A program made the translations under genes and the position numbers. From a virus: DNA of 64,000 nucleotides. Below the pieces are notes generated by a model that did not search any database, had not been told where the DNA came from, and was given only the letters and a program-made list of their open reading frames with translations. This document shows positions 12,323 through 48,719 of the stretch, piece by piece. Every line of letters begins with the position of its first letter. Within the stretch, counting starts at the first letter, position 1. The stretch spans positions 107,041 through 171,040 of IMG/VR virus record IMGVR_UViG_3300024324_000009; one strand, 5' to 3'.

Positions 12323-13974
12323 TATGGAACCCAGTATAAGGTGCTGCCACTTTTGTAAAAACTGCCAGAAGTACTACTTGTACTACTTTTAACTACTTGA
12401 TCACCCGGACTGAAACTTGAACCAGCCGATGGAGTTTTCCATGCAGGTGCTCCCGTTGTTCCATTGCTTGTTAAAACTTGTCCAGAGGAGCCGCTCGATC
12501 CACTAATTTGAAGGCGACCCGTCATATTCATTGATACGCTATTCGTAAATTTTGTTGTACTACTAAATGTCTTTTCGCCAGCAACAGTCTCGTCCCCGGT
12601 AAGGCCAACGTAATTAGTTGAGGCATTTGCATTTATAAGAGATATCACAGAAACTTTGGTTTGTATAGATGAACTATCGTCTGTTCTACCTAAGTATTGG
12701 ATAAAACTATTATTGTTTGAACCACCGTTGTAATGATAGTCTTTAAAAATAATCTGATTTTCACCATCCGCAGTCTTACCCCTAAGTATAAATGAGTTAA
12801 AGTTGTTTGAACGCTGGGTACGGTCCACTGTAGTATTAAAATAACCTGCGTCTTTAATATTATATCCACGACAATCTATCTCAGGAATTACATCAACACC
12901 ATTATAATCTGTACCTTGATACAGTTTAAACTGAGAGTTCATCTGAACAACGGTATTACCCCATTTCATCCTAACGCCATTGGAGGTATCATTTGTGCCG
13001 TATGCTAGTGTTCCATTTGCACCGAACTCAGCAGTAATTCTACGATCACCGTTTATAATAATATGATCTTGAAATGTATTCTTTGCAGTAAATGTATTAG
13101 CACTACCCCTTAAAGCACAGAGATCAAACAGTTGATCTACATACGCTATATCTGCTTTATCACTAACGTCTACATCAGGAAAAACAAGACAGTCATATAC
13201 GTCTCCGTCGTCTACTGTACCATTGCTTATAGCACTTTGCATAGTTACATCTAACTTCACCCCACTGGCTAATTGATTGACTGTTTCTATCTGAAATCTG
13301 ACAGAAACATCCTCATCGTTTTCTTCTCTAAAATTAAATGTGTCACCAGAGGCAAGAGAAACAAAGTTGTGTAATAGTCCGTTTTTATCTACAAAACTAA
13401 GAAAGATTTCGTTGATTGTTACAGGGTTGTTTGTAACAGTACCATTAAAACCTACATAACATGCAGAAGGTGCAGGTGCATCACCATATACTTCACTGCC
13501 TTGAGGCGATCTAATAATATATTCAATATCAAAAGTTGATCTAGCCTCTAAGCCTGATACTTTAATATCTAGTATCTCAATGTCTTCTTCAACCTCATCC
13601 ATTCTGTCGTCTAGGTCGGCAATACCTGTCGCATTAGCATCTACACGACCATCTAGAGTAGTAAGGTCTGACTGTAGTGCAAGTCCTGTGGCAGATATTT
13701 CATAGACTCTTTCGCCAGAGAAATAAGTCATCTCTATACCAAAGCCCGGATCGAGAAACTCATCAAGTTTAGCAATTAAAGAATCGTCTGGATAAATAGC
13801 ATTTGCATAGGGTAGTGCGTCCCAAACTAAAGCACCATCGCCTATTTTAAAAGTGTTATAAGTAGTATCTAAACCGAGTTCACCGGAATACAAAACGGGA
13901 TTCTCTAAAGACCAGTTGGCTTCTGTGTCTCTACGTAGTTGCATTTTATAATATTTTGTTGAGTCGAGGCCCAT
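12322..13974 (-). CDS. Tail fibre protein with Mtd_N (major tropism determinant N-terminal)-like domain
   Basis: QLRRDTEANW..NPVLYSGELG.D....FKIGDG...W..LPY, a coiled coil, GDETVAGEKTF and GQVLTSNG fibre motifs. Confidence 0.8.
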   Translation of the reverse strand: MGLDSTKYYKMQLRRDTEANWSLENPVLYSGELGLDTTYNTFKIGDGALVWDALPYANAIYPDDSLIAKLDEFLDPGFGIEMTYFSGERVYEISATGLALQSDLTTLDGRVDANATGIADLDDRMDEVEEDIEILDIKVSGLEARSTFDIEYIIRSPQGSEVYGDAPAPSACYVGFNGTVTNNPVTINEIFLSFVDKNGLLHNFVSLASGDTFNFREENDEDVSVRFQIETVNQLASGVKLDVTMQSAISNGTVDDGDVYDCLVFPDVDVSDKADIAYVDQLFDLCALRGSANTFTAKNTFQDHIIINGDRRITAEFGANGTLAYGTNDTSNGVRMKWGNTVVQMNSQFKLYQGTDYNGVDVIPEIDCRGYNIKDAGYFNTTVDRTQRSNNFNSFILRGKTADGENQIIFKDYHYNGGSNNNSFIQYLGRTDDSSSIQTKVSVISLINANASTNYVGLTGDETVAGEKTFSSTTKFTNSVSMNMTGRLQISGSSGSSGQVLTSNGTTGAPAWKTPSAGSSFSPGDQVVKSSTSSTSGSFYKSGSTLYWVP

Positions 13975-13997
13975 TGTTATTCTCCAAGAAGTTTAGA

Positions 13998-14342
13998 TTA
14001 AGGAATTGGTGTGCCGGGAATAGTGTCCGAAAACCCTCCATCAACTAAGTAACCTTCTGAAGAACCACCACCGCCACCACCATTACATGGTTCGCAGTTG
14101 TCAAAACGATTGCCTAATGTTTCATCAAATACTCCGCTGCCACCAGTAGGTGAAATAACTTCTGCATTAGGATTGTCTAAAGTGCTACCATAAGGATTAC
14201 AGCAACAGTCGGCTAAATCTAATTCAGGATGGTAGTTACAACCTCCACAATAATAACTTGTATAGCCTGTAACTTTTGTACTCATGGCTCCACAACCATT
14301 GAGTACTGGATTCCCTGATATTGCTGGGTGGATGACTGCCAT
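13998..14342 (-). CDS. Cys/Gly-rich hypothetical protein
   Basis: ORF with a GAGG RBS. Confidence 0.55.
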   Translation of the reverse strand: MAVIHPAISGNPVLNGCGAMSTKVTGYTSYYCGGCNYHPELDLADCCCNPYGSTLDNPNAEVISPTGGSGVFDETLGNRFDNCEPCNGGGGGGSSEGYLVDGGFSDTIPGTPIP

Positions 14343-14355
14343 TTTAAAACCTCAT

Positions 14356-14718
14356 TTATTGTTTGGGTAAGTGATCGATTCTCTCTTCTAGATTAGTTAA
14401 AGTATTGCCAAGAGTTGCAATTTGAATTTTTAATTCGTTCATTACTTCTGCATTTCTCCAAAGTGCTTTAGAGAACTGCTCTTGCATATCTTTATTCTCT
14501 TCTAGTCTTTGCATTATTAATGATCTATCTCTAGTATACTGACTTTGATTTTCTATAATATTAGCTACTTCTTGTTTAGTAACCATATGACGAATGAAAG
14601 TTGCCCAGAAACCAAGAAGAGTGATAATTATGCCCACTGAAGTTGATGCTACATGAGCCCAAAAATTTGTCGCTTCCATATTGTTTACCTCGTTTGCAAA
14701 AAAAAGAAAACTAGTCAA
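14356..14718 (-). CDS. TM plus coiled-coil hypothetical protein
   Basis: One TM helix followed by heptads. Confidence 0.55.
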   Translation of the reverse strand: MTSFLFFANEVNNMEATNFWAHVASTSVGIIITLLGFWATFIRHMVTKQEVANIIENQSQYTRDRSLIMQRLEENKDMQEQFSKALWRNAEVMNELKIQIATLGNTLTNLEERIDHLPKQ

Positions 14719-14749
14719 AAAAAAGCCAGTGAAGCGAACTTCACCGGCT
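14717..14749 (-). terminator. Rho-independent terminator
   Basis: AGCCGGTGAAG-TTCG-CTTCACTGGCT followed by a T run. Confidence 0.8.
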
Positions 14750-14787
14750 CCTATATTAAATACACAATTTAGAATGAAAAGTGCAGA

Positions 14788-15426
14788 TTACCATACGGTT
14801 TTTGCATCATAGCATTCTGAAACTGGTAGTTTACCACCGGGGCCAAGATAGACCAACTTACCGGGACAGGCCTGCGTAGGCTGGGCTGCAACGTCCGTTG
14901 AAGTGGCACTAGAGCCATCAACTGGCGACCAGAATGGATCGTCAGAGACAGTGACCGCTGGATCAAACTCGCCTAGATAGGCATTCCACTGACCAGCACG
15001 AATTGCTGTTGCAATTTGATAAGTGTAAGTTTTCTCACGCTTTGCTGGGTTACGAATCCATGATGGATCGTCATTGATGTGTGTCAAGAAATCATTGGCT
15101 ACACCACCGATTGTGTCACTGACGCGAGCAGCAACCATCTTGTAGACACGACCTTCTGATTTGCCTTGACCCATATTGTAAGCAAATTCACCTGCTGAAA
15201 CTGCCTTATCAGCATTCTCACCTTCTACAACAGTCGAAGCAAAAACTCCGTTTTGTAGAGGACGCAAAGCTGAATTGACATTATCCAGAAGATAAACTTT
15301 TTCATTCAAAGGATTACCAAGATCAACAGCAGAACCGTGATTGTTCTGTACTGCTTCGCTTGATACTGCCTTTTCTGTAGTAACTATCATAATTTTCTCC
15401 ATGAAGTTAGGGAACTGTATATACAA
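14788..15426 (-). CDS. Hypothetical (possibly structural) protein
   Basis: ORF between a GGTGTA motif and a terminator. Confidence 0.55.
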   Translation of the reverse strand: MYIQFPNFMEKIMIVTTEKAVSSEAVQNNHGSAVDLGNPLNEKVYLLDNVNSALRPLQNGVFASTVVEGENADKAVSAGEFAYNMGQGKSEGRVYKMVAARVSDTIGGVANDFLTHINDDPSWIRNPAKREKTYTYQIATAIRAGQWNAYLGEFDPAVTVSDDPFWSPVDGSSATSTDVAAQPTQACPGKLVYLGPGGKLPVSECYDAKTVW

Positions 15427-29683: not shown

Positions 29684-30688
29684 TTAATCCAGTAAACTCG
29701 CTGCAATTAAGCATCCTTTAGAAACAGAATGTAATGGGTCGTCTGCATGTTTTACAACCTCAATACCAAGAGGAAACCCTGACTCTTTCAATTTTTCCTC
29801 TAGTTTTTCTACATAACCTTCAGCCCTTGATGTGCCACCAGCAACAACAATCTTGATGTCATCTTTAAACTTAGGTAAAGATTTGTGACCATCTAACGCT
29901 GCGGATAATTGTTTAGCAGTATAATCAATAAGTCTTTCATAGTAAGAAGCAACAGCACTTAAAACCGGATTGTCATTAGCTTCACCGACTTTAAAACCAC
30001 CGCTTTCTTTTTCTACCTGTACAACACTATCAGCTTCACCTGTGGCAACTGCACTCATGCGGTCAACCCAATCACCTGACTTTGTGGTACTGAAGACTAC
30101 TGTTGGTTCGCCGTTGAGCATAACACAAACATTGGTCATACCTGCACCACAACTAATGCCAATGCCAGTATAGTCTGTGTCTTCTAACTCAGCGTAACAC
30201 AACGCTTCTGCTTCGTTCACTGACCTTGCATCATATCCTACTTCTGCAAGGATAGCTTGTACTGTATCTTCGTGGAAGCCTACGTCAAAGTCTTCATCTT
30301 CTTGATCCACTGGTTGTGCAGGAACACAGTATACCAGTTTCTCACCTTCAGTTTCAGCCTGACCGACCACCTCTTTTAAAATGTAAGCCAATACACGTTT
30401 AGCTTCTTTTTCTTTTACGGAGATTACACCTCTGTGCATAGGACGACGAGCAGTTTCATTTCTTTCGACTGCCTTCTCAATAGCATCAGAACCGAGAAGA
30501 ATAAAAGAGCCATCTTCATCTTTGACAAACACTTTTCCTGCCAAACCTTTTTCAATCATTTTATTCGCTATAGGGGTGGATGGTTTAATAATATAAAACG
30601 CATCTCTAAAATCTTTGAATTTAATATTGTCGCCCTCATACTGTGACATTACAATAAAACTCGTGCCTACGTCAAGTCCGATTCCCAT
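29684..30688 (-). CDS. Actin-family ATPase (volactin/MamK/MreB-like)
   Basis: Phosphate-1 GLDVGT, RRPM.RGVI, VPA.P, NEAEA, phosphate-2 ISCGAGMTNVC, SGDWVD, adenosine VVAGGTS, connect-2 DPLHSVSKG. Confidence 0.9.
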   Translation of the reverse strand: MGIGLDVGTSFIVMSQYEGDNIKFKDFRDAFYIIKPSTPIANKMIEKGLAGKVFVKDEDGSFILLGSDAIEKAVERNETARRPMHRGVISVKEKEAKRVLAYILKEVVGQAETEGEKLVYCVPAQPVDQEDEDFDVGFHEDTVQAILAEVGYDARSVNEAEALCYAELEDTDYTGIGISCGAGMTNVCVMLNGEPTVVFSTTKSGDWVDRMSAVATGEADSVVQVEKESGGFKVGEANDNPVLSAVASYYERLIDYTAKQLSAALDGHKSLPKFKDDIKIVVAGGTSRAEGYVEKLEEKLKESGFPLGIEVVKHADDPLHSVSKGCLIAASLLD

Positions 30689-38353: not shown

Positions 38354-38840
38354 GATATACCTCCCAATCTCGATAAAAACTTTCGTTACCAGTGTCGATA
38401 CAACAAAGCATCGCTACTTCATTCTCCAACACTCCTCTATAAATATAACCGATATTTTGAAAATGGCAATCCCAAAAATCCAAATCTGTGTGATATTTTA
38501 TTTTATGACACAGTTTCTCAATCCAGACGTTATCAATATCTTCGGTTAATAGTTCTGCTTTTTCTGTGAGATAGCCTAATTCAGTTGTTGTTACTTTAGG
38601 ATCATAATACCTAAGTAATTCTGGCTCATAAAAATAAGGTATTTTGCACAGCCCTCCGTAAACTCTTGGGGCTAGATTGTGTTTAGATAATTCAACCTGA
38701 TTGTTATATGCTTCCTTGGCTTTTAACTCATGGTTAAAACTCTTAAACAATAAAGAAGGATGATCCTTCACAGGCAAAACATCACAGTTCGCCCCTGAAA
38801 AACCATCCTCTAATTCAATTAAATAATCGTTATTAATCAA
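38337..38840 (-). CDS. Protein-kinase-like fold protein
   Basis: LAPRVY, DCH.QNIG (catalytic loop), CIDTG. Confidence 0.65.
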   Translation of the reverse strand: MINNDYLIELEDGFSGANCDVLPVKDHPSLLFKSFNHELKAKEAYNNQVELSKHNLAPRVYGGLCKIPYFYEPELLRYYDPKVTTTELGYLTEKAELLTEDIDNVWIEKLCHKIKYHTDLDFWDCHFQNIGYIYRGVLENEVAMLCCIDTGNESFYRDWEVYHAVYK

Positions 38841-39819
38841 TACTTCCTACTTCCCCACCTGCTCTAGTAATTACGCCAGCAAAAACTCTCAGGTCTACGT
38901 TGTTATTAATAGTCCTAGTTGATCCATCAGCATAACATGCGTTCATAACTCCGGGGTGCATACTGAATGCCTCACCATCGTTAATTACGTTAAATGGTAC
39001 GTTGCCGGGACAGTTTTTACACTTGTCACCATTAGCATCAACTCCATGTAGTTTAAAAGGCCCAAGGCTGTCAGCCCAACCAAGACACTGGTTTGTGTCA
39101 CCTGTTGGAGTGCCACCTCTGTTTACACTAGCCTTATAAACATCAGGCCTACTTGAGCATTCAGCAATCATAAGAGTATTAGAAAAACCATCTCTAATTT
39201 GCTGCTCTTTAGTTACCTGATCTTTTACCAAGCACCCTTCTGTAATCGGGCCTTTTGCTGCATAAGGATCGCTACCAGCAGGAAAGATTTTATCCTTAAC
39301 ACCAGTAAACGTCTCATAATCTGTATGACCAAGACTGCTTGGACTTAGACTTGGTGCAGCACTATCTTCATCTCTGGTTGGCCCATCAATATCTGCATAC
39401 CCATCACCAGCAGGCAAAGCAGATGGACACAGAAATGTATTTACAGTTGTATTTACAGCCTGTGTATTCTCCCACCAATTTTTATTAAAATCATAAAGGT
39501 CTGCAACATTGCGTTGCTCTAAATTAGCAAGAGCAAATGCTCTCCAACTATGTTCTGTTCGTGATGGATTGCCAAGTGCAGATGGAGTCTCACTTAAATC
39601 TTTCGCCTCGATAGTCCATGCAGCAGCAGGAAAATACCTTCTTTGATCCATAGTTGTGTGCATAGCCAAACCTTGTTGTTTTAAATTGTTAGTGCAAGAA
39701 ACTCGTCTTGCTGCTTCTCTAGCCTGTTGTACAGCGGGAAGCAAAAGCCCCACTAATACTCCAATAATTGCGATTACCACTAATAATTCGATGAGTGTAA
39801 AGCCTTTACGTTGGTGCAT
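38833..39819 (-). CDS. DUF1559 prepilin-type N-terminal cleavage/methylation protein (planctomycete family)
   Basis: KGFTLIELLVVIAIIGVLVGLLLPAVQQAREAARR..C.NNLKQ.GLA.H, FLCPS, IRDGFSNT, H-X9-DG (HPGVMNACYADG). Confidence 0.95.
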   Translation of the reverse strand: MHQRKGFTLIELLVVIAIIGVLVGLLLPAVQQAREAARRVSCTNNLKQQGLAMHTTMDQRRYFPAAAWTIEAKDLSETPSALGNPSRTEHSWRAFALANLEQRNVADLYDFNKNWWENTQAVNTTVNTFLCPSALPAGDGYADIDGPTRDEDSAAPSLSPSSLGHTDYETFTGVKDKIFPAGSDPYAAKGPITEGCLVKDQVTKEQQIRDGFSNTLMIAECSSRPDVYKASVNRGGTPTGDTNQCLGWADSLGPFKLHGVDANGDKCKNCPGNVPFNVINDGEAFSMHPGVMNACYADGSTRTINNNVDLRVFAGVITRAGGEVGSID

Positions 39820-40951: not shown

Positions 40952-41182
40952 CTATTCTGGTTTAACCGGCAAAAATATAGCTAGGGCTAAATAAATCCAG
41001 AAAGTAATACTTAAACTAAAAAAGAAACCTGCAACCATTCCTATTCTAAGGATTGAAGTATCTATGCCTGTAAAGTCTGAAAGACCAGAACATACTCCAA
41101 ATATCATTCCTTCTTTTTTATTCTTGAATAATTGTTGTGCCATTATAAATCTCCGGTATTGTATTAGGATTATAACCAGCAA
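40952..41182 (-). CDS. pspC: PspC-domain membrane protein
   Basis: L.K......IFGVCSGLSDFTGID.SILRI...YLALAIFLP. Confidence 0.85.
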   Translation of the reverse strand: MLVIILIQYRRFIMAQQLFKNKKEGMIFGVCSGLSDFTGIDTSILRIGMVAGFFFSLSITFWIYLALAIFLPVKPE

Positions 41183-41404: not shown

Positions 41405-42196
41405 CTACAATGGCTCAAGATTTTCTCCATCTCTGTAGCTATCTCTTTCGATACGGTCATTATAAGGATTGTCTATAAATTTTGTTAGCGTAGGTTGATG
41501 CACACTATAAAAATGTTGCTTTCTCATAAACTTAAAATAATCTAGTTCTCCCATATGTGAGTTTCCTTTTGCATAAAGATCAGAAAGAAGCCACATTTCT
41601 ACTGTATCATCTATTGCTTCGTTTGGTTTATGTAGCATCTTAATATACTTACTATTAGCCCACCATACATTGCCACAATAATGTAATGGATGTCCACCAG
41701 TATGTTTAATAAAACAAGATGCAGTATGATGAGTATTTAAAGCATCTACACAGTCTTTCCATCTATACATTGTCCAGTATTCTAGGTACTCATTCCATAG
41801 GTCTACTTTGTCACACATTTCTGGTGGAGATATTGTTTTTCTCATAACTCCTTTACTATGATCATAAAATATTTGATGGTTATCTTCCAGACCATTGCAA
41901 AAATCCCACAACCATGTAGCTGTTTCAGTTTCCTGTCTAGCGTATTCCTTGCTGTATCTTATTTCTATCTTAGGATCATTCTCATATTCTGGAATTTCAA
42001 CTGTCATAAACTCTCTATCACAGTTTATTAAAAGATGTATCTTTTCTAGTTCATCATATAATCCAGATTTTTTGCATCTGCCAAATGACTCGTTTAATCT
42101 TTCTTTCCATAAAGGAGTTGATCCTTTTTTTGGATTGCGATTATATACAGTGCAGTGATAAAACATAAATTTACTCATCTTTCCATACCTCCGCAT
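41405..42196 (-). CDS. Putative glycosyltransferase-like protein
   Basis: YDHSKGV, W..YLEYW...W.DC...L, HYCGNVWWANS.YI..L. Confidence 0.6.
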   Translation of the reverse strand: MRRYGKMSKFMFYHCTVYNRNPKKGSTPLWKERLNESFGRCKKSGLYDELEKIHLLINCDREFMTVEIPEYENDPKIEIRYSKEYARQETETATWLWDFCNGLEDNHQIFYDHSKGVMRKTISPPEMCDKVDLWNEYLEYWTMYRWKDCVDALNTHHTASCFIKHTGGHPLHYCGNVWWANSKYIKMLHKPNEAIDDTVEMWLLSDLYAKGNSHMGELDYFKFMRKQHFYSVHQPTLTKFIDNPYNDRIERDSYRDGENLEPL

Positions 42197-42743
42197 CTCT
42201 TCTATCGTGTTTGTGTCTGTATCCTAATTTCCCCATTTTTCTATAATACTCATTAATATTCATTTTTGTGTGTGCAGTTTCAAATCGTATCCATCTTATG
42301 TCATACTTTTCATAGTCTATGCTTTCTAGTATATGCAAATCATAGCCTTCAGTATCTACATATAATCTATCAATAGTTTTGAATCCTGTCATTCCAAATA
42401 ATTGATTTGCTGTACACGCAGGATGTTCTTTAGGATATATATTAAAATCTTCCCAACCCATCTTTTTTAAATGCTCTTTATTAAAACTTGTATGTTGCCC
42501 ATTTTTTTCTACGTCAGAATAATAAAGTTTTACTGTTTTTTGATGTGGGTCTGTGGTAATTGCTCTAGCCAGTATCTTTACTTCAACATCAAAGTGTTCA
42601 TAGACTTTTAAACAGTTGCTAAGTTTATCTATGTTTGGGTCTACACAAGTTAATCTATTAATTTTATTATGATTAGCTTTTACAAATTTAAAACAATCGT
42701 CACAGGTAAAGCAATCGTTGCTACCTATCTGTACTATATTCAT
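42171..42743 (-). CDS. FkbM-family methyltransferase
   Basis: IVQIGSND, IDRLYVDTEGYD..IL, IRFE. Confidence 0.85.
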   Translation of the reverse strand: MNIVQIGSNDCFTCDDCFKFVKANHNKINRLTCVDPNIDKLSNCLKVYEHFDVEVKILARAITTDPHQKTVKLYYSDVEKNGQHTSFNKEHLKKMGWEDFNIYPKEHPACTANQLFGMTGFKTIDRLYVDTEGYDLHILESIDYEKYDIRWIRFETAHTKMNINEYYRKMGKLGYRHKHDRRDAEVWKDE

Positions 42744-43120
42744 TTCTTCTTACCTTTCAAGTCCGCTATGTTCTGTGCTATATCTACTAGCCTATCCCAA
42801 TTTTCATCTATGTATTTTTCTGGCCCACCCATATCAGCCTGTGCTTGTGCTATTTCTTCAGTGGGAACCATTTCAATAGCATCCCAAGGACAAACCTTAA
42901 CATCATATAACTTTCCTTTATTACCCGGAACATGGATACATTGTTCGCAACCTATACAAGTAGATAGATCAATCTCACACCATTGAGTTACTCCCTGTTT
43001 TATCTGGAATATACAATCAACAGGACACACTTCTAAACAAGCCTCGCAGCCCGTACAGTTGTCTGCCTGAATGATTGCTAATTCTTTGGGTATCTTTTTT
43101 CTTACTTTTTTATCTGCCAT
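42740..43120 (-). CDS. 2x[4Fe-4S] ferredoxin
   Basis: CTGCEACLEVCP and CIGCEQC...CPWDAI. Confidence 0.9.
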   Translation of the reverse strand: MADKKVRKKIPKELAIIQADNCTGCEACLEVCPVDCIFQIKQGVTQWCEIDLSTCIGCEQCIHVPGNKGKLYDVKVCPWDAIEMVPTEEIAQAQADMGGPEKYIDENWDRLVDIAQNIADLKGKKK

Positions 43121-44421
43121 TAAGCTATAATATCGTGTTGGATATTTCCGAATACGTCTGTTAGTCTAAAGTCTCTACCACTATACCTATAAGTAAGTTT
43201 AGTATGATCTATTCCCATCAGATATAATATAGTAGCATGTAAATCATGTATGTCAAGCCCGTCTACTGCTTTGTGTCCAAAATCATCAGTAGTGCCGTAT
43301 CTCATGCCACCCTTTACGCCACCGCCTGCCATCCAGACAGTGAACCCACCATTATTATGGTCTCTTCCTGTAGCACCAGCCTTGATGCCCGGAGTACGAC
43401 CAAACTCACTACCGAATAAAACTATAGTGTCCTCAAACATGCCAGAATCTTTTAAATCTTGTAGCAACGCACCAATAGGCTGATCAATAGCAGTTCCCTT
43501 ACGCTGAATGTTGCCAGCGATGTCTTGGTGATTGTCCCAACCACCGAATCCGATCTCGACAAATCTCACGCCTGCTTCACTAAATTTCTTCGCTAACAAA
43601 CACTGCTTGCCAAACTTTTCTGTTGTCTTATTATTTATACCATATCTTTCTAGAGTTTCTTGTGACTCTTTTGATATGTCAATAGTTTGTGGAACACTTG
43701 TCTGCATTTTATAAGCCAGTTCATAACTTTCGATCAGGCCTTCCAATCTGCTATTCTCGCCTTTTAATTGCAGATGGTTTAGATCGCTAAGAAAATCTAA
43801 GTTCTCTCTTTGTTCAGCCATTCCTATTGGACTTTTTAAATTAGGTATTGCGTTTGCCATATTACCTGCATTAACTGCTGTGCCTTGATATATTGCAGGA
43901 AGAAATGCACTTCCGTAATTCTCTGGCCCAATACCAGCATCAATCGTTAGAAAACCGGGAAGTTCTTTGTTCTCAGTTCCTAAACCATACAGTAGCCAAC
44001 TACCCATACTGGGACGAGTAAACTGGAAATTGCCTGTGTGTAATAATTGTTTTGCTTGATTATGATTACCAGACTTTGATTTCATTCCATTAATTAAACA
44101 TAGGTCATCGGCATGTTTTCTCAAGTGAGGAAAATTTTCACTAATTTCAATACCACTTTCTCCTGCCGGTGTGAGTGGAACAGCAGGCTTGACAATCTTT
44201 CTGCCTTTGCTTACTGGATCGTCGATACCATCTTTCTCAACCATCAAAGGCTTGTAGTCAAAAGTATCGGTGTGACTCATCCCTCCACCCATATAGCAAA
44301 ATATAATCTTCTTTTTAATTGCTGTAGTTTCTTCTGCAAGTAGGCCTTTCAATGCCAACATGCCAAACCCAGCACTTGCTGTTTGTAATAAGTTTCGTCG
44401 ATTAAAATAGTTATTGTACAT
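43120..44421 (-). CDS. DUF1501 protein (planctomycete family; Tat signal)
   Basis: NRRNLLQ, M.GG.SH.DTFDYKP, RPSMGSW..YGLG.EN..LPGF, WDNH, EFGRTP, GRDH, HDLHATIL...GIDH..LTY...GRDFRLTDV.G. Confidence 0.95.
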   Translation of the reverse strand: MYNNYFNRRNLLQTASAGFGMLALKGLLAEETTAIKKKIIFCYMGGGMSHTDTFDYKPLMVEKDGIDDPVSKGRKIVKPAVPLTPAGESGIEISENFPHLRKHADDLCLINGMKSKSGNHNQAKQLLHTGNFQFTRPSMGSWLLYGLGTENKELPGFLTIDAGIGPENYGSAFLPAIYQGTAVNAGNMANAIPNLKSPIGMAEQRENLDFLSDLNHLQLKGENSRLEGLIESYELAYKMQTSVPQTIDISKESQETLERYGINNKTTEKFGKQCLLAKKFSEAGVRFVEIGFGGWDNHQDIAGNIQRKGTAIDQPIGALLQDLKDSGMFEDTIVLFGSEFGRTPGIKAGATGRDHNNGGFTVWMAGGGVKGGMRYGTTDDFGHKAVDGLDIHDLHATILYLMGIDHTKLTYRYSGRDFRLTDVFGNIQHDIIA

Positions 44422-46888
44422 TTCTAAATTCTCCTGTGCATATTAATATTTGGATTAGGTTTGCAAGATTCTTTTCCATAATCTCATTCTTTTTCTTGAT
44501 GTCTACTTTGCTTGTGTAGTCAACAAACTCTTCACCTTCTGGGGTCTTACCAACTCCTAAACCAATCTGTTCTGCTTGCTCTGTATCTTTTAGATAAAAA
44601 TCCATCGCTGCTTCAAATTCAACTTTAGATGGTGGCCTTCCAAGAATCTTTTGCCATATACTATGAAGATTATTATGGTGCAATAGCCTTGGCATGGTTC
44701 TACCCATCCTCATATTATTTTGCCATATCTCTTTTGCCATTTCTTTACACATGGCGATGATCTTTGGATTGTTCATTAAGAATAATGCTTGAGTACTAAC
44801 TGTTGTTACATTTCTTTCTGCTGCCAGCAGGCTATTGTCTGGACGATCAAACATATCAAGTATCTCAATCTTATTATCCCTTAACGATGGAATATAAATT
44901 GATCTAGCTTTAGTTTCCCCAATATATTTTCTTAATTCTTTTCCCGGTGCTTTAATTCCTGTTTGTATCTCACTTATGTTCTTATGCGACCCCTCTAGTT
45001 TGCCTGAGACAAATAACAGAGTGTCCCTAATTTGTTCAGCCTCTAATCTTTTCTCATTCATTCTCCAAACGTAAACATTGTCTGGGTCAATCTCAAAATT
45101 ATCTTTATTGAAGTTACTACTGCGTTTATATGCGTCACTCATAACGATAGTTTTAATTAGTCGCTTGTTTGACAATTTACCAGTAACAAACTTACTTGAA
45201 AGATAGTTCATTAGTTTAAGATTGCTTGGCTCACCACCAAGTATACCAAAATTATCAAAGCTGTCAAGTATACCTTTTCCAAAAAGATGTCGCCATACCC
45301 TGTTCACATGAACTCTGTAAGTCAGAGGATTAGTTTTATGTGCTATCCATTCTGCCAGTTCATAACGTCCACTGGTATTATCAAAGTTGAGAAATGGTCT
45401 GTCACTAAATATTTCAGGCAATCTTCTTGGCACTTCATCACCAAGATTATTAACTTCTCCCCTGATTGCAATTTTAATCTCAGTCATTTTAGTCTTGTCT
45501 TTTACAGACATTATAGGCTCAAGAAATTCTAGATAAGCTAAATCTTTTTCATTAAGTTTAGTCTTGGCCTCATCTAATCTCTTTTGTCTTTTATCTGTCT
45601 CTCTTTTAAGTTGTTCTGGAGTAACTCTTTTGCTCCAAGTTTTAATAGATTCTAATTGTGCTTCTAAGTTCTTGGTCTCACATAAAGCTAACCATCTCTC
45701 AATCTGTCTTTGCTTGTACAGGCTTTCAGTTTCTTTTGTGACTAAAAAATCGTAATCACCAAGATAGCCTGTATTATTATTACCTCTATATAATCCATCA
45801 AGGTTTTGTGTGTTACTAAATAAACCAGCAACACCATAGTAGTCTTCTTGGCTAAATGGATCAAACTTGTGATCATGGCATCTTGCACAACTCAGAGTCA
45901 TGCCAAGAAAACCTCTTGTAACTGCGTCTATTTGGTCGTCGTTGCGGTCTGCTTCAAACTGTCTAGTCTGTGCCTGTATATTTTTTGTACCTATTGTTAA
46001 AAAGCCTGTGGCAATTCTATTAATATTATATTCTTCATAGCTTTTATGTGGTAATAGATCGCCTGCAATTTGCTCTTTTATAAAATCATCGAATGGTTTG
46101 TCATTGTTAAAACTATCAATAACATAATCTCGATACCTCCAAGCATACGGACTAACCAAATTTCTGTCTGAACCAGATGATTCTCCATATCTGGCTACAT
46201 CTAACCAGTGTCTTCCCCATTTTTCTCCAAAGCCTTCGTCATCAAGTAAAGTATCGACTAAATTTTCATAACGATCTTCACTCTTATTCTGCATAAACTG
46301 CCTCATCTGTATTTCACTTGGGGGCAAACCAATAAGATCAAAATATAGTCTACGCATTATAGTATAGTCTTCTGCTAATTCACTAGGCTTTAAACCATGC
46401 TTATCTAAATCTAATTGCAGTATTGCATCTATCTCTGTACCATCGTCATACTTTGCTACAGGAGGACGCTGAACTTTTTTGAATGACCAGAACTGTCTAG
46501 CCTGCCTAAGTTCTATTGCTCTATTCTCATGCTTGTATCGTGGGTCAGGCATTCCCATTTTAATCCATTGTCGGAATAATTCAACAGTCTTTTCATCTAG
46601 TGGTTGATCAGGAGGCATGTCACCAGACTCTACATAGTCAAAAAGAGAACTCTCTTCTGGCTTACCCGGAACCACACTTGGCCCAGAATCACCACCGTTT
46701 AATATACCTTGCCTAGTATCTATGGCAAATCCACCTTTAGTTTTTTCTGAGGCAGATGAATGACATGAATAACATTGGGTTTGTAACACTGGTAAGATAT
46801 TATCATTAAAAAATTTGACACCACTTTTATCTTGACTATAAGCTATACTAGCAGATAGTGCAACAACAATAGCGATAACATATTTCAT
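44411..46888 (-). CDS. Planctomycete cytochrome c plus DUF1549 plus DUF1553 (PSCyt1/PSCyt2/PSD1) protein
   Basis: Signal peptide, CYSCH, RRLYFDLIGLPP, WGRHWLDVARY, CARCHDHKFDP, SGR.ELA.WI, NRVW..LFG.G, RL.AEQIRD, QALFLMN. Confidence 0.95.
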   Translation of the reverse strand: MKYVIAIVVALSASIAYSQDKSGVKFFNDNILPVLQTQCYSCHSSASEKTKGGFAIDTRQGILNGGDSGPSVVPGKPEESSLFDYVESGDMPPDQPLDEKTVELFRQWIKMGMPDPRYKHENRAIELRQARQFWSFKKVQRPPVAKYDDGTEIDAILQLDLDKHGLKPSELAEDYTIMRRLYFDLIGLPPSEIQMRQFMQNKSEDRYENLVDTLLDDEGFGEKWGRHWLDVARYGESSGSDRNLVSPYAWRYRDYVIDSFNNDKPFDDFIKEQIAGDLLPHKSYEEYNINRIATGFLTIGTKNIQAQTRQFEADRNDDQIDAVTRGFLGMTLSCARCHDHKFDPFSQEDYYGVAGLFSNTQNLDGLYRGNNNTGYLGDYDFLVTKETESLYKQRQIERWLALCETKNLEAQLESIKTWSKRVTPEQLKRETDKRQKRLDEAKTKLNEKDLAYLEFLEPIMSVKDKTKMTEIKIAIRGEVNNLGDEVPRRLPEIFSDRPFLNFDNTSGRYELAEWIAHKTNPLTYRVHVNRVWRHLFGKGILDSFDNFGILGGEPSNLKLMNYLSSKFVTGKLSNKRLIKTIVMSDAYKRSSNFNKDNFEIDPDNVYVWRMNEKRLEAEQIRDTLLFVSGKLEGSHKNISEIQTGIKAPGKELRKYIGETKARSIYIPSLRDNKIEILDMFDRPDNSLLAAERNVTTVSTQALFLMNNPKIIAMCKEMAKEIWQNNMRMGRTMPRLLHHNNLHSIWQKILGRPPSKVEFEAAMDFYLKDTEQAEQIGLGVGKTPEGEEFVDYTSKVDIKKKNEIMEKNLANLIQILICTGEFRNVQ

Positions 46889-46889
46889 A

Positions 46890-48212
46890 TTAAACCTCTC
46901 TTGCTTTGCCATGTAGATGTTTGAAGGTTGGAAATCTTAGGCTTATCCCACCTTCCTGATTTGTAGTCTCCTCAAAATATTGTACCAAAATAACCATGCC
47001 CTTAATTAGGTCAGGATTATTGTAAAACTCCTGTCTTTGATCAATAGTGAATCCACTTCCAACTCGTACATGATGTCCTCTATGGGTAATATACACACAA
47101 CTGAGCATTTCTTCCTCACATTCTGCACCATCCTTGACATATCGAAATGGCCCCATTTCTACGTCATCTACGGTATATTCAGCATCCTGAAAGGTTTTAA
47201 CTTTTAACAGGTCTTTTGACCTTTTACCTTTATATGTCGTGTTCTTACGAAGCATTACGCCTTCCCAGCCGTATTTGTCAGCCTGTTTAGACCAGAACTG
47301 TAAACCTTCATCATCTTTGACAATACTCATTCTTAGGACACTGAGACAAGGACATTCGTTCTTCTCCATAGCCAAGGCTAATTCAGTCATTCTCATTTCC
47401 AGATTACTCTTGCTTGAGCCTTTTTGGAAGTCATTAAAGTCAATCATGTCAAAGATTTTAAATGACGGGTTTTTAATTGTATGGTCTTTCTTGCGAATCT
47501 GTTTCATTACACCTTGAAAATCCTCATTTCCATCATCATCAATCAGACACAACTCACCGTCTAAAACTTTGTTAGTAAGTTGTAGACCCTTAATGCCATC
47601 ATAAACAACACCAAGAGTAGTGATTTCTTTTCCTGTACGGGTATAGAAGTTAATGTCACCAAAAGCGTCAATAATAGCAACACATCTAACACCATCCAAT
47701 TTACGAGAAACATACCAACCCTCTCCCCATTCGTGTTTGTCAGGATTAAACTTATCCGCTAAAGCAACATTAAATTGTCTGATAAGACCGGGAACAGCCT
47801 TGTTGATGAGTTTAGCACCTGTCCTAGTTTTTAAATCTTTATCAAGAATTAGATACACCAGTTCCTCATCATGTGGAAACTTTTTGATATATGTATTGAT
47901 AATTCTAACAGCGTCATGTCCAGTATATCTACCAGTGCGTAAATCACTAAACAGTGATGCTAAACCATATCCGGGTTCACAATCACCAAAGGAGAGGTCA
48001 GGACGTTTCTTCACCTGCTTACTGGTAATATTGTACATACTGTACGGACAGTATGCCATGCTGAGTACGGTCTTTGCAAAGAGTTGATTGCCGTTCTGTT
48101 CCTCAACGCCGCCTGTGTATTCCAGCAAGATGTCCAATTTGTCATTGGTACTGCTGTTGTGTCGTAGTTCCTCGATCATGTCCATAACGTGTAGTGTAGC
48201 TTGTTTAGTCAT
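46890..48212 (-). CDS. ATP-dependent DNA ligase
   Basis: KLDGVR, LDGE, FKIFD, EGVMLR, LLKVK, VGSGF, SLRFPTF. Confidence 0.95.
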   Translation of the reverse strand: MTKQATLHVMDMIEELRHNSSTNDKLDILLEYTGGVEEQNGNQLFAKTVLSMAYCPYSMYNITSKQVKKRPDLSFGDCEPGYGLASLFSDLRTGRYTGHDAVRIINTYIKKFPHDEELVYLILDKDLKTRTGAKLINKAVPGLIRQFNVALADKFNPDKHEWGEGWYVSRKLDGVRCVAIIDAFGDINFYTRTGKEITTLGVVYDGIKGLQLTNKVLDGELCLIDDDGNEDFQGVMKQIRKKDHTIKNPSFKIFDMIDFNDFQKGSSKSNLEMRMTELALAMEKNECPCLSVLRMSIVKDDEGLQFWSKQADKYGWEGVMLRKNTTYKGKRSKDLLKVKTFQDAEYTVDDVEMGPFRYVKDGAECEEEMLSCVYITHRGHHVRVGSGFTIDQRQEFYNNPDLIKGMVILVQYFEETTNQEGGISLRFPTFKHLHGKAREV

Positions 48213-48254: not shown

Positions 48255-48282
48255 AGTATAACATTAGTTATCGGTTTGTCAA
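48255..48282 (-). promoter_or_regulatory. Sigma70-like promoter TTGACA-16-TATACT
   Basis: Upstream of the ligase. Confidence 0.75.
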
Positions 48283-48292
48283 GCAGAAAACT

Positions 48293-48514
48293 TTATTCTT
48301 TTATTGCTTCTATCTGAGAACACAGAATTTGTTTTTCTATTTCAGCGGTATGTAGATCAGTTTTAAGATCATCTATATCCTGTTGGGCTATAGTGTTTTT
48401 AACTATATTATTAGCGTTTTCATACTTAGTAATTTTTTGTTCTAAGTTTTTAGATATTATTTTTTGTTGTTGGTATTTTAATTCTAGTATTTTTAATGTA
48501 GTTGATTCATCCAT
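48293..48514 (-). CDS. Coiled-coil hypothetical protein
   Basis: ORF track. Confidence 0.5.
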   Translation of the reverse strand: MDESTTLKILELKYQQQKIISKNLEQKITKYENANNIVKNTIAQQDIDDLKTDLHTAEIEKQILCSQIEAIKE

Positions 48515-48719
48515 TGTCAGTAAAGTCTTTCTTTAACTTAGTTAACAAATTAGCACCTGCTGTTGGAAAGAAACAGGGAAATATAGAATGTGTTATTAAT
48601 TTAAATGCAGTGACAAGTACAGACACAGCATGTCCACCAGCAAATATAAAATGCTGAGACCAATTCATTTTATTATCATCCAAATGAGTATTCCACTCAG
48701 TAACCAAATAGTGTAGCAT
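48507..48719 (-). CDS. Small conserved protein (DUF6356-like)
   Basis: HL....M.W..H..FA...HSIFP.FF. Confidence 0.55.
   Translation of the reverse strand: MLHYLVTEWNTHLDDNKMNWSQHFIFAGGHAVSVLVTAFKLITHSIFPCFFPTAGANLLTKLKKDFTDNG

What the first reader, a model, noticed from the sequence alone, without database searches (positions are those of the whole stretch)
42740..46888. Complete planctomycete cytochrome c (PSCyt1-DUF1549-DUF1553) + DUF1501 + ferredoxin module in a phage
Seen: three coupled genes directly downstream of the DNA ligase. They encode a Sec-exported protein with two CxxCH heme motifs (CYSCH, CARCH), a Tat-signal DUF1501 protein and a 2x[4Fe-4S] ferredoxin. They look as AT-rich as the phage genes around them. 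Knowledge: DUF1549/1553-DUF1501 pairs are highly expanded, functionally unknown signature genes of Planctomycetota and Verrucomicrobiota. Inference: a long-retained, ameliorated auxiliary periplasmic redox/enzymatic module. It implies a fitness role during infection and offers a minimal system for studying this family.
Basis: partly seen in the sequence, partly recalled or inferred. Interest (0 to 1): 0.85.

Follow-up and report, generated by a model that had tools for sequence, protein, structure and literature searches.

The report
Phage-borne PVC cytochrome–DUF1501 enzyme pair
A complete 171-kb phage, probably of marine Planctomycetota, carries and strictly conserves a two-gene exported enzyme pair of unknown function that is a signature of its host superphylum; the neighbouring ferredoxin is a separate, later acquisition and not part of the pair.

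Summary
On the minus strand, after a DNA ligase, lie three genes:
- a Sec-exported PSCyt1-DUF1549-DUF1553 protein (44411-46888) with two CxxCH motifs;
- a Tat-signal DUF1501 protein (43120-44421);
- a 2x[4Fe-4S] ferredoxin (42740-43120).

All three have phage-like GC3 and codon usage. The contig is a real phage: an IMG/VR record that CheckV rates 100% complete, with RIIA, a split PolB, primase, helicase, RNR and tail/baseplate genes.

The cytochrome-DUF1501 pair is an old, phage-adapted acquisition:
- Phage copies form one clade (SH-aLRT 100) nested among PVC bacteria.
- No cellular homolog exceeds 50% identity.
- dN/dS is 0.04-0.09.
- Several complete relatives carry the pair, and so does a second phage lineage.

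A complex prediction supports binding of the DUF1553 region to DUF1501 (score 0.68, best control 0.00). DUF1501 has an alkaline-phosphatase/NPP/sulfatase fold but no sulfatase CxPxR motif.

The ferredoxin is not part of the module. It has no signal peptide, and two complete relatives lack it. In cells it is a housekeeping Planctomycetota gene. The best cellular match is 84%, which points to the host.

The function of the pair remains unknown. This scan has already noted the same pair in phages on other DNA.

The parts
44411..46888 (-). Sec-exported PSCyt1-DUF1549(PSCyt2)-DUF1553(PSD1) protein, 825 aa counted from the second ATG
46895..46900 (-). GAGAGG Shine-Dalgarno before the ATG at 46888; the ligase stop TAA is at 46890-46892
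   Evidence: Read directly from the sequence.
46760..46774 (-). First heme-c motif, C-Y-S-C-H (residues 39-43), with the M-P-P axial-ligand motif at residues 91-93
   Evidence: C, C, H and M are each kept in 35 of 42 aligned homologs; the others lack one or more of them (several lack the PSCyt1 domain). Present in all complete phage copies.
45875..45889 (-). Second CxxCH motif, C-A-R-C-H-D-H (residues 334-340), inside DUF1549
   Evidence: C334, C337, H338 and H340 are invariant in 42 of 42 homologs.
43120..44421 (-). Tat-signal DUF1501 protein, 433 aa, an alkaline-phosphatase-superfamily enzyme
44386..44403 (-). Twin-arginine motif N-R-R-N-L-L (residues 7-12 of DUF1501)
   Evidence: R9 is invariant and R8 is R in 55 of 58 homologs. 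All phage relatives keep NRR(N/S)LLQ.
42740..43120 (-). Cytoplasmic 2x[4Fe-4S] ferredoxin, 126 aa; an adjacent but independent host-derived gene
   Evidence: Fer4_21 and Fer4 above cut-off. No signal peptide. Absent from complete relatives G001 and G004. Cellular homologs are Planctomycetota housekeeping genes.
46890..48212 (-). ATP-dependent DNA ligase; upstream neighbour in this genome only
   Evidence: PF01068 and PF14743. 54-56% identical in clade B and C phages. Not found within the 8 kb upstream of the pair in clade A relatives.
48255..48282 (-). Sigma-70-like site (TTGACA, 16 nt, TG, TATACT) upstream of the ligase; possible start of the co-directional block
   Evidence: Consensus scan only, 11 of 12 positions. 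No minus-strand terminator-like site between 48212 and 41400.

Best explanation
Shown: a tailed phage with no detectable integrase, probably lytic, whose host is most likely a marine Planctomycetota, carries an anciently captured and now phage-adapted copy of the PVC-bacterial 'PSCyt1/DUF1549/DUF1553 + DUF1501' gene pair. The pair is intact, under strong purifying selection, and inherited within at least two related phage clades.

Inferred: during infection the pair is transcribed in one co-directional block with the ligase. The large protein is exported by Sec and receives heme c from the host maturation system. DUF1501 is exported folded by Tat. In the periplasm, the C-terminal DUF1553 region of the large protein binds the helical cap of DUF1501 to form a heterocomplex.

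Most likely role, weakly supported: DUF1501 is a metal-dependent ester hydrolase or transferase of the alkaline-phosphatase superfamily, with a Ser/Thr at position 49 as candidate nucleophile. It would act on a phospho- or sulfo-ester substrate in the periplasm. The heme-motif partner would serve for substrate recognition, activation or redox control. The phage would benefit by scavenging a limiting nutrient for replication of a 171-kb genome.

The adjacent ferredoxin is a separate cytoplasmic electron-carrier gene taken more recently from a Planctomycetaceae-like host.
For: Phage identity:
- IMG/VR virus record, CheckV 100% complete.
- RIIA, Mtd_N tail fibre, baseplate wedge, split PolB, primase, DnaB and RNR.
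- No integrase found.

Family membership: Pfam scores 52-430 bits.

Phage residency:
- GC3 and codon usage equal the rest of the genome, against cellular GC3 of 0.46-0.88.
- The best cellular DUF1501 among 185,579 species genomes is 50% identical.
- Phage clades A and B are monophyletic (SH-aLRT 100, stem 0.68) inside a PVC clade.
- dN/dS is 0.04-0.09.
- The pair is present in complete relatives G001, G004 and G009 and in the 97%-complete G010 of a second viral clade. That clade also has tail-fibre and terminase genes.

Assembly: the same pair order recurs on more than 15 independent viral contigs and in 77 of 80 cellular loci, so the junction is not an assembly artefact.

Complex: ipSAE 0.68 (median of 3 runs) against a best control of 0.00. 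That mark was reached by 58 of 80 solved complexes and 2 of 110 mismatched pairs. The runs share at least 74% of contacts and the partner pLDDT is at least 86. The interface covers the conserved TTVxxQALxLMN motif of PSD1 and the YELAYKMQ motif of DUF1501. No solved relative of the large protein exists, so the pass is unlikely to come from memory.

PSCyt1 domain: cytochrome-c-like fold with CxxCH and MPP.
Against: - No expression or biochemical data.
- Heme attachment, metal content and substrate are all untested.
- The fold does not discriminate between phosphatase, phosphodiesterase, sulfatase and transferase chemistry.
- The role of a cytochrome partner in a hydrolytic reaction is unexplained.
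- Cellular neighbourhoods are heterogeneous: a Pec_lyase-like protein, an esterase, a 5'-nucleotidase and a PQQ propeller. They give no substrate clue.
- The pair is not universal in the wider phage group. The complete clade C genome G006 has only a divergent lone DUF1501.
- The complex was predicted on a truncated chain 1 (residues 232-825) with my own alignments, so the calibration counts hold only roughly.
Confidence: 0.6

Rival explanations
1. Envelope remodelling or superinfection exclusion. The exported pair modifies a periplasmic or surface glycan, lipid or receptor of the infected cell, as the alkaline-phosphatase-superfamily transferases EptA, LtaS and BcsG do. This would block further phage adsorption or prepare lysis, and would not feed metabolism.
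For: - The phage carries other envelope-directed PVC genes: two DUF1559 prepilin-like genes and several glycosyltransferases.
- The phage also has RIIA, annotated as a lysis-inhibition/exclusion gene.
Against: - DUF1501 has no membrane anchor, unlike EptA and LtaS.
- The top structural matches are soluble NPP and PafA hydrolases.
- The cellular family is expanded to dozens of copies per genome and has been linked to carbohydrate-use contexts (PMC5615132). That fits catabolism better than receptor masking.
Confidence: 0.2
2. One reading: a three-gene redox chain in which the ferredoxin passes electrons to the cytochrome-DUF1501 pair.
For: - The stop and start codons overlap (TAATG) in this genome.
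- The ferredoxin follows DUF1501 in most clade A contigs.
- The ferredoxin is very conserved, with dN/dS 0-0.11.
Against: - The ferredoxin has no export signal while both partners are periplasmic.
- It is absent from the complete relatives G001 and G004, which keep the pair, and from clade B.
- It is absent next to all 80 cellular pairs.
- Cellular orthologs sit between lysA and dprA among housekeeping genes.
- Its closest cellular identity (84%) differs greatly from that of the pair (50% or less), which indicates a separate acquisition.
Confidence: 0.05
3. Artefact or passenger: a chimeric assembly, a cellular contaminant, or a recently acquired and functionless piece of host DNA.
For: The ligase-PSCyt junction is seen only in this contig. 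Read-level coverage could not be checked.
Against: - Composition is uniform.
- Gene overlaps on both sides are tight.
- Contig L008, from a different IMG/VR record, is 96% identical and continues DUF1501-ferredoxin-FkbM through to RIIA in the same order.
- Purifying selection is strong.
- The phage copies are monophyletic and deeply diverged from cellular copies.
- None of the 80 cellular loci carries any other gene of this phage at a comparable level; the only extra hit is one weak 26% match in one locus.
Confidence: 0.03

Closest known systems
PVC 'DUF1501 + PSCyt1/PSCyt2/PSD1' conserved genetic module (Kamneva et al. 2012, PMC3542564; also He et al. 2017, PMC5615132)
   Same: The domain architecture, gene order, Sec and Tat signals and CxxCH motifs are the same. 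77 of 80 cellular homolog loci show the same pair.
   Different: Here it is encoded by a phage, as a single copy, with phage codon usage. It forms its own clade, at most 50% identical to any cellular copy. Function is unknown in both.
Nutrient-acquisition auxiliary genes of marine phages, such as cyanophage pstS and phoA (from general knowledge)
   Same: A host-derived exported protein is kept under selection in a large marine phage. A phosphoester-hydrolase-type fold is plausible.
   Different: The family is different and the substrate unknown. It has an obligate heme-motif partner. No regulatory or expression evidence was obtained here.
NPP/ENPP phosphodiesterases, PafA alkaline phosphatase and type I sulfatases (alkaline-phosphatase superfamily)
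   Different: Identity is only 12-17%. There is no sulfatase CxPxR formylglycine motif. DUF1501 has an extra helical cap (residues 155-240), which is the predicted docking site for the partner.
Class I c-type cytochromes FoxE (5mab) and PccH (4rlr)
   Different: Here it is an N-terminal module of an 825-aa protein whose remaining 700 residues have no solved relative.
Housekeeping 2x[4Fe-4S] ferredoxin of Planctomycetota, about 131 aa, lying next to lysA
   Same: The phage ferredoxin is 60-66% identical to many Pirellulales and Planctomycetaceae copies and 84% identical to the copy in MAG UBA12365. Length and cluster motifs are the same.
   Different: It is phage-encoded, has phage-like GC, and sits next to DUF1501 rather than lysA and dprA.
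UniProt A0A6J5M742, 'DUF1501 domain-containing protein [uncultured Caudovirales phage]'
   Same: It is a DUF1501-fold protein already deposited from a phage metagenome (Foldseek E 3e-11).
   Different: It is only 13% identical and carries an automatic annotation only. I found no published analysis in the searched library.

Membership tests
PSCyt1 (PF07635) | Profile match above the gathering score; CxxCH with a downstream Met axial ligand | tested here: met
PSCyt1 / PSCyt2 | Covalent heme c actually bound | not testable with these tools
   Needs heme staining or mass spectrometry of the expressed protein.
PSCyt2 / DUF1549 (PF07583) | Profile match; conserved C-x-x-C-H box | tested here: met
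   257 bits against a cut-off of 29.8. CARCHDH has C, C, H and H invariant in 42 of 42 homologs.
PSD1 / DUF1553 (PF07587) | Profile match over the full domain | tested here: met
   233.3 bits against a cut-off of 28.5, covering profile positions 2-243 of 244.
DUF1501 (PF07394) | Profile match; twin-arginine leader | tested here: met
   429.9 bits against a cut-off of 27. R8-R9 conserved.
PVC DUF1501 + PSCyt/PSD1 module (Kamneva 2012) | The two genes are adjacent, co-directional, with the PSCyt/PSD1 gene first | tested here: met
   11-nt overlap here. Same order in clade A and B phages and in 77 of 80 cellular loci.
PVC DUF1501 + PSCyt/PSD1 module | The two products act together physically | tested here: inconclusive
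   The prediction supports binding (0.68 against 0.00), but this is a model and not a measurement.
Type I (formylglycine) sulfatase | C/S-x-P/A-x-R formylglycine motif | tested here: not met
   No such motif in the protein. The fold is shared.
Alkaline-phosphatase superfamily | Core alpha/beta fold with conserved metal-ligand residues | tested here: met
2x[4Fe-4S] bacterial-type ferredoxin | Two CxxCxxC...CP cluster motifs; Fer4 profile match | tested here: met
   CTGCEACLEVCP and CIGCEQC...CP. Fer4_21 40.1 against 35 and Fer4 37.7 against 21.1.
Phage auxiliary (host-derived, non-structural, non-replicative) gene | Lies in a bona fide phage genome; cellular origin by phylogeny; maintained by selection | tested here: met
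   (phage). (nested in PVC bacteria). (dN/dS below 0.1).
Phage auxiliary gene | Expressed during infection and altering host physiology | not tested

The most novel reading that the evidence does not exclude
The phage copy is a minimal, single-copy and self-sufficient version of the most expanded orphan system of PVC bacteria. DUF1553 docks onto the cap of a DUF1501 metallo-esterase, and the two heme sites gate or activate its chemistry. Phages of Planctomycetota (and, by earlier notes of this scan that I did not check, of Verrucomicrobiota) have captured it repeatedly, with up to three DUF1501 genes in one complete genome, because it supplies a limiting nutrient or remodels the envelope during infection. 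Solving this one pair would assign a function to thousands of bacterial paralogs.
Probability: 0.3. Interest if true: 0.75.

Novelty: new member of a known kind. Interest (0 to 1): 0.52.

Why it matters
DUF1501 and PSCyt/DUF1549/DUF1553 pairs number in the dozens per genome in Planctomycetota and Verrucomicrobiota. They have had no assigned function since they were described (PMC3542564, PMC5615132), and their redundancy makes genetics hard.

Phages have kept exactly one pair under strong purifying selection across deep divergence. That argues the pair works as a self-contained unit with a clear fitness value. It also provides a small, well-conserved set of orthologs for expression, structure and activity screens.

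The predicted interface between DUF1553 and the DUF1501 cap is a concrete hypothesis that mutagenesis can test.

The 84%-identical ferredoxin and the DUF1559 genes also tie a family of 150-200 kb uncultured phages to Planctomycetota, a phylum for which I know of few phage isolates.

Tried and rejected
- tblastn of the large protein and of the ferredoxin against 50,697 GenBank phage records gave no match. No isolated or deposited phage in that set carries them.
- T4 Gp23 and portal profiles did not match the genome, but they matched no control genome either, so this is uninformative.
- The PHROG scan left many large ORFs unassigned, and I did not identify the terminase or the major capsid protein of this genome.
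- Foldseek of the 825-aa model against the PDB gave nothing with E below 0.2. VIA-align matched only the cytochrome domain and a coiled-coil hairpin. The model is long, so the DUF1549 and DUF1553 folds were not searched as single domains.
- Flanking genes of the nearest cellular pairs were scanned for a substrate clue. They are heterogeneous.
- A RIIA-seeded search for an unbiased set of relatives returned mostly short fragments. Prevalence could be judged only on a few complete records.
- The DUF1559 search gave only short MAG contigs at 54-60% identity, which is weak host evidence.
- Literature searches for the Pfam names together with phage found nothing relevant. The library is incomplete.
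- Chimera, cellular contig and a three-gene redox chain were considered and rejected; see the rival explanations.
Full report
**What is there.** The window is the last 64 kb of a single 171,040-bp contig. The genome service identifies it as an IMG/VR virus record with CheckV completeness 100%.

Between 42.7 and 48.2 kb, four tightly packed minus-strand genes encode:
- an ATP-dependent DNA ligase (46890-48212);
- an 833/825-aa protein with PSCyt1, PSCyt2 (DUF1549) and PSD1 (DUF1553) domains (44411-46912, real start 46888);
- a 433-aa DUF1501 protein (43120-44421);
- a 126-aa ferredoxin with two 4Fe-4S motifs (42740-43120).

An FkbM-type methyltransferase follows (42171-42743). All Pfam scores are far above the curated cut-offs.

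The ATG at 46888 is preceded by GAGAGG, and the ligase stop ends one base before it. Relatives start at the equivalent signal peptide. The CYSCH and CARCH motifs and the N-R-R-N-L-L Tat motif are present and conserved.

**Is it a phage?** Yes. The genome encodes RIIA, an Mtd_N tail fibre, further tail-fibre and baseplate-wedge proteins, and giant ORFs of 2,217-4,824 aa in a plus-strand structural arm. It also encodes a family-B DNA polymerase split into two genes, primase, a DnaB-type helicase, an exonuclease and a ribonucleotide reductase. No integrase was found, while the control genomes all matched. GC is even across the window.

**Is the module at home in the phage?**
- GC3 of the three genes is 0.27-0.31 against a genome mean of 0.296 +/- 0.039. 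A codon-adaptation index computed against the rest of the genome gives z-scores from -0.08 to +0.76.
- The nearest cellular homologs have GC3 0.46-0.88.
- In IMG/VR, 17 loci encode a DUF1501 relative and 31 a relative of the large protein.
- A close clade A (69-86% and 77-96% identity) keeps the pair in the same order on contigs of up to 166 kb. In those contigs the pair is more conserved than its neighbours. In L032, for example, RIIA is 48%, IMPDH 61% and a glycosyltransferase 46%, against 74% and 81% for the pair.
- A deeper clade B (43% and 60%) shares the ligase (55%) and RIIA (48-59%).
- Contig L008, a different IMG/VR record, is 96% identical and continues DUF1501-ferredoxin-FkbM through to RIIA colinearly. 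The downstream junction is thus independently assembled.
- The ligase junction is unique to this genome, so the pair has moved within the genome during the evolution of the clade.

**Origin.**
- Among one genome for each of 185,579 species, the best DUF1501 match is 50% identical (Pirellulaceae, Opitutales, Verrucomicrobiaceae, Phycisphaerales).
- 77 of 80 cellular loci have the PSCyt/PSD1 gene directly upstream. None has the ferredoxin, and apart from one weak 26% match in one locus none has any other gene of this phage.
- In a maximum-likelihood tree of 117 DUF1501 proteins (quick search, LG+C20), clades A and B form one group with SH-aLRT 100 on a stem of 0.68. That group sits inside a PVC clade supported at 99, and its sister is unresolved.
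- A second all-viral clade of 13 rows is sister to a Lentisphaeraceae copy. A very divergent lone DUF1501 of clade C phages sits on a long branch.
- Contigs of the second viral clade encode tail-fibre and terminase proteins.
- Pairwise dN/dS within clade A is 0.07-0.09 for the large protein, 0.04-0.09 for DUF1501 and 0-0.11 for the ferredoxin.
- Complete relatives G001 (159.7 kb), G009 (165.9 kb) and G004 (152.4 kb) carry the pair, as does the 97%-complete G010 (189.6 kb). G004 has three DUF1501 genes.
- The complete clade C genome G006 (197 kb) has only the divergent DUF1501 and no PSD1.

The pair is thus an old, selected, accessory cargo of this phage group. It is not a universal core gene.

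**The ferredoxin is a separate story.**
- It has no signal peptide, whereas its two neighbours are exported.
- It is missing from complete G001 and G004, from clade B, and from several clade A contigs.
- Its homologs (969 clusters) are about 131 aa long, and those that carry names are Planctomycetota proteins.
- Nearly all of the best 80 genome hits are Pirellulales, Planctomycetaceae or Planctomycetia at 60-66% identity.
- In cells the gene lies among housekeeping genes: SHMT, an M50 peptidase, lysA-type decarboxylase, dprA, prfA, infA.
- The best hit, 84% identical, is on a contig of Planctomycetaceae MAG UBA12365 with the same M50-lysA context, so it is cellular.
- The ferredoxin is therefore a more recent, independent capture. 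It is the best host marker here, together with two DUF1559 prepilin-like genes.

**What the proteins look like.**
- DUF1501 modelled well (pLDDT 87.5, pTM 0.86).
- Foldseek places it among sulfatases (E about 1e-8, TM about 0.4).
- There is no formylglycine motif. D55, H120, D296, H298, E339, R353 and H355 are invariant, and position 49 is always Ser or Thr. This suggests, but does not show, a metal site with a Ser/Thr nucleophile.
- The large protein also modelled confidently as one body (pLDDT 83.9, pTM 0.81).
- The other roughly 700 residues have no match in the PDB. This has the caveat that they were not searched domain by domain.

**Do the two bind?** One complex job was run, with residues 232-825 of the large protein and residues 36-433 of DUF1501, each with its alignment.
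- It gave ipSAE 0.68 (runs 0.66-0.69) against a best control of 0.00.
- That mark was reached by 58 of 80 solved complexes and 2 of 110 mismatched pairs.
- The runs share at least 74% of contacts, and the partner pLDDT is at least 86.
- The interface joins the C-terminal DUF1553 region (residues 612-823, including the conserved TTVxxQALxLMN stretch) to the helical cap of DUF1501 (residues 155-240, including YELAYKMQ).
- This is a model and not a measurement. Because my own alignments were used, the calibration holds only roughly.

**How it most likely works.**
- Shown: a real phage, an intact exported pair, ancient capture, strong selection, an alkaline-phosphatase-superfamily fold, and a cytochrome-like N-domain.
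- Inferred: co-transcription with the ligase block. A sigma-70-like site lies at 48255-48282, and there is no minus-strand terminator-like site down to 41400. A GGTGTA motif lies 29 nt upstream of gene 48507-48719. Also inferred are Sec and Tat export, heme loading by the host, and complex formation in the periplasm.
- Speculative: hydrolysis of a phospho- or sulfo-ester to scavenge a nutrient. The main rival is envelope or receptor remodelling.
- The published work on the bacterial module offers only 'electron transport, function unknown' and a possible link to carbohydrate use (PMC3542564, PMC5615132).

**Novelty.**
- The library searched holds six papers that name any of these Pfam families. 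None treats phages.
- GenBank phage records have no homolog of the large protein or of the ferredoxin.
- One automatically annotated DUF1501 protein from an uncultured phage exists in UniProt/BFVD.
- This scan has already noted the same pair in phages of at least two dozen other genomes. Two follow-ups reached similar conclusions for phages linked to Verrucomicrobia. Those are unchecked AI notes and are not independent evidence.
- I class this as a new member of a known kind: a host-derived auxiliary gene set, and a member of the known PVC module.
- Its value is that it offers a minimal system and a concrete docking hypothesis. The occurrence itself is not a surprise.

Noticed in passing
window 38833-39819 (-) and genome 90723-91796 (L006:16723-17796, -): Two prepilin-like genes. 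The first has N_methyl plus DUF1559 (PF07596), another Planctomycetota-expanded family. The second matched only a pilin PHROG and was not scanned against Pfam. The best cellular hits to the first are 54-60% identical, on short MAG contigs labelled Planctomycetaceae and Rubritalea.
   Followed up: partly
window 29684-30688 (-): A 334-aa actin-fold protein matches Pfam Volactin (E 1e-67). This is a phage-encoded actin homolog.
   Followed up: no
genome 84913-86529 and 87520-89394 (L006:10913-12529 and 13520-15394, -): The family-B DNA polymerase is split into two ORFs, matching phrog_405 positions 42-616 and 622-1077. About 1 kb lies between them, including a 229-aa ORF. This may be a homing-endonuclease or intein-type interruption.
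   Followed up: no
G004 (record of L038), 125311-126468, 139021-140217, 145176-146303: A complete 152-kb relative carries three DUF1501 genes but only one PSD1 gene. In L038, one divergent 414-aa DUF1501 is followed by a 624-aa ORF with no Pfam match, which might be an unrecognised partner.
   Followed up: partly
L019:5033-9386: A 55.8-kb viral contig carries a PSCyt2-PSD1 protein that lacks the PSCyt1 domain, followed by two tandem DUF1501 genes.
   Followed up: partly
L055:5718-10919 (also L044, L054): In a more distant phage lineage the order is reversed (DUF1501 first). A ThyX thymidylate synthase gene sits between the two genes.
   Followed up: no
L017/L025 (IMGVR_UViG_3300047157_000188): In the relative at 86-89% identity, the large protein's ORF begins only at the CYSCH box, with no signal peptide. 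Its DUF1501 ORF is 400 aa long and not about 431. These could be frameshifts, decay or sequencing errors.
   Followed up: no
whole genome; for example 29 nt upstream of window genes 48507-48719 and 40952-41182: GGTGTA occurs 67 times on both strands. It falls within 60 nt upstream of 11 of the 173 ORFs I called, where about 2 are expected. It is a candidate phage promoter element that brackets the block containing the module.
   Followed up: partly
L145 (DONH01000323.1, Planctomycetaceae MAG UBA12365): A cellular ferredoxin 84% identical to the phage copy, in the usual M50 peptidase-lysA context, at GC 0.49. This lineage is a candidate host or donor.
   Followed up: partly
L066, L078, L087 (Verrucomicrobiaceae loci), ORF directly upstream of the PSCyt/PSD1 gene: A conserved protein of about 510 aa with a weak Pec_lyase (PF09492) match precedes the pair in several Verrucomicrobiaceae. 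In an Opitutales locus (L057) a PQQ-like beta-propeller lies between the two genes.
   Followed up: no
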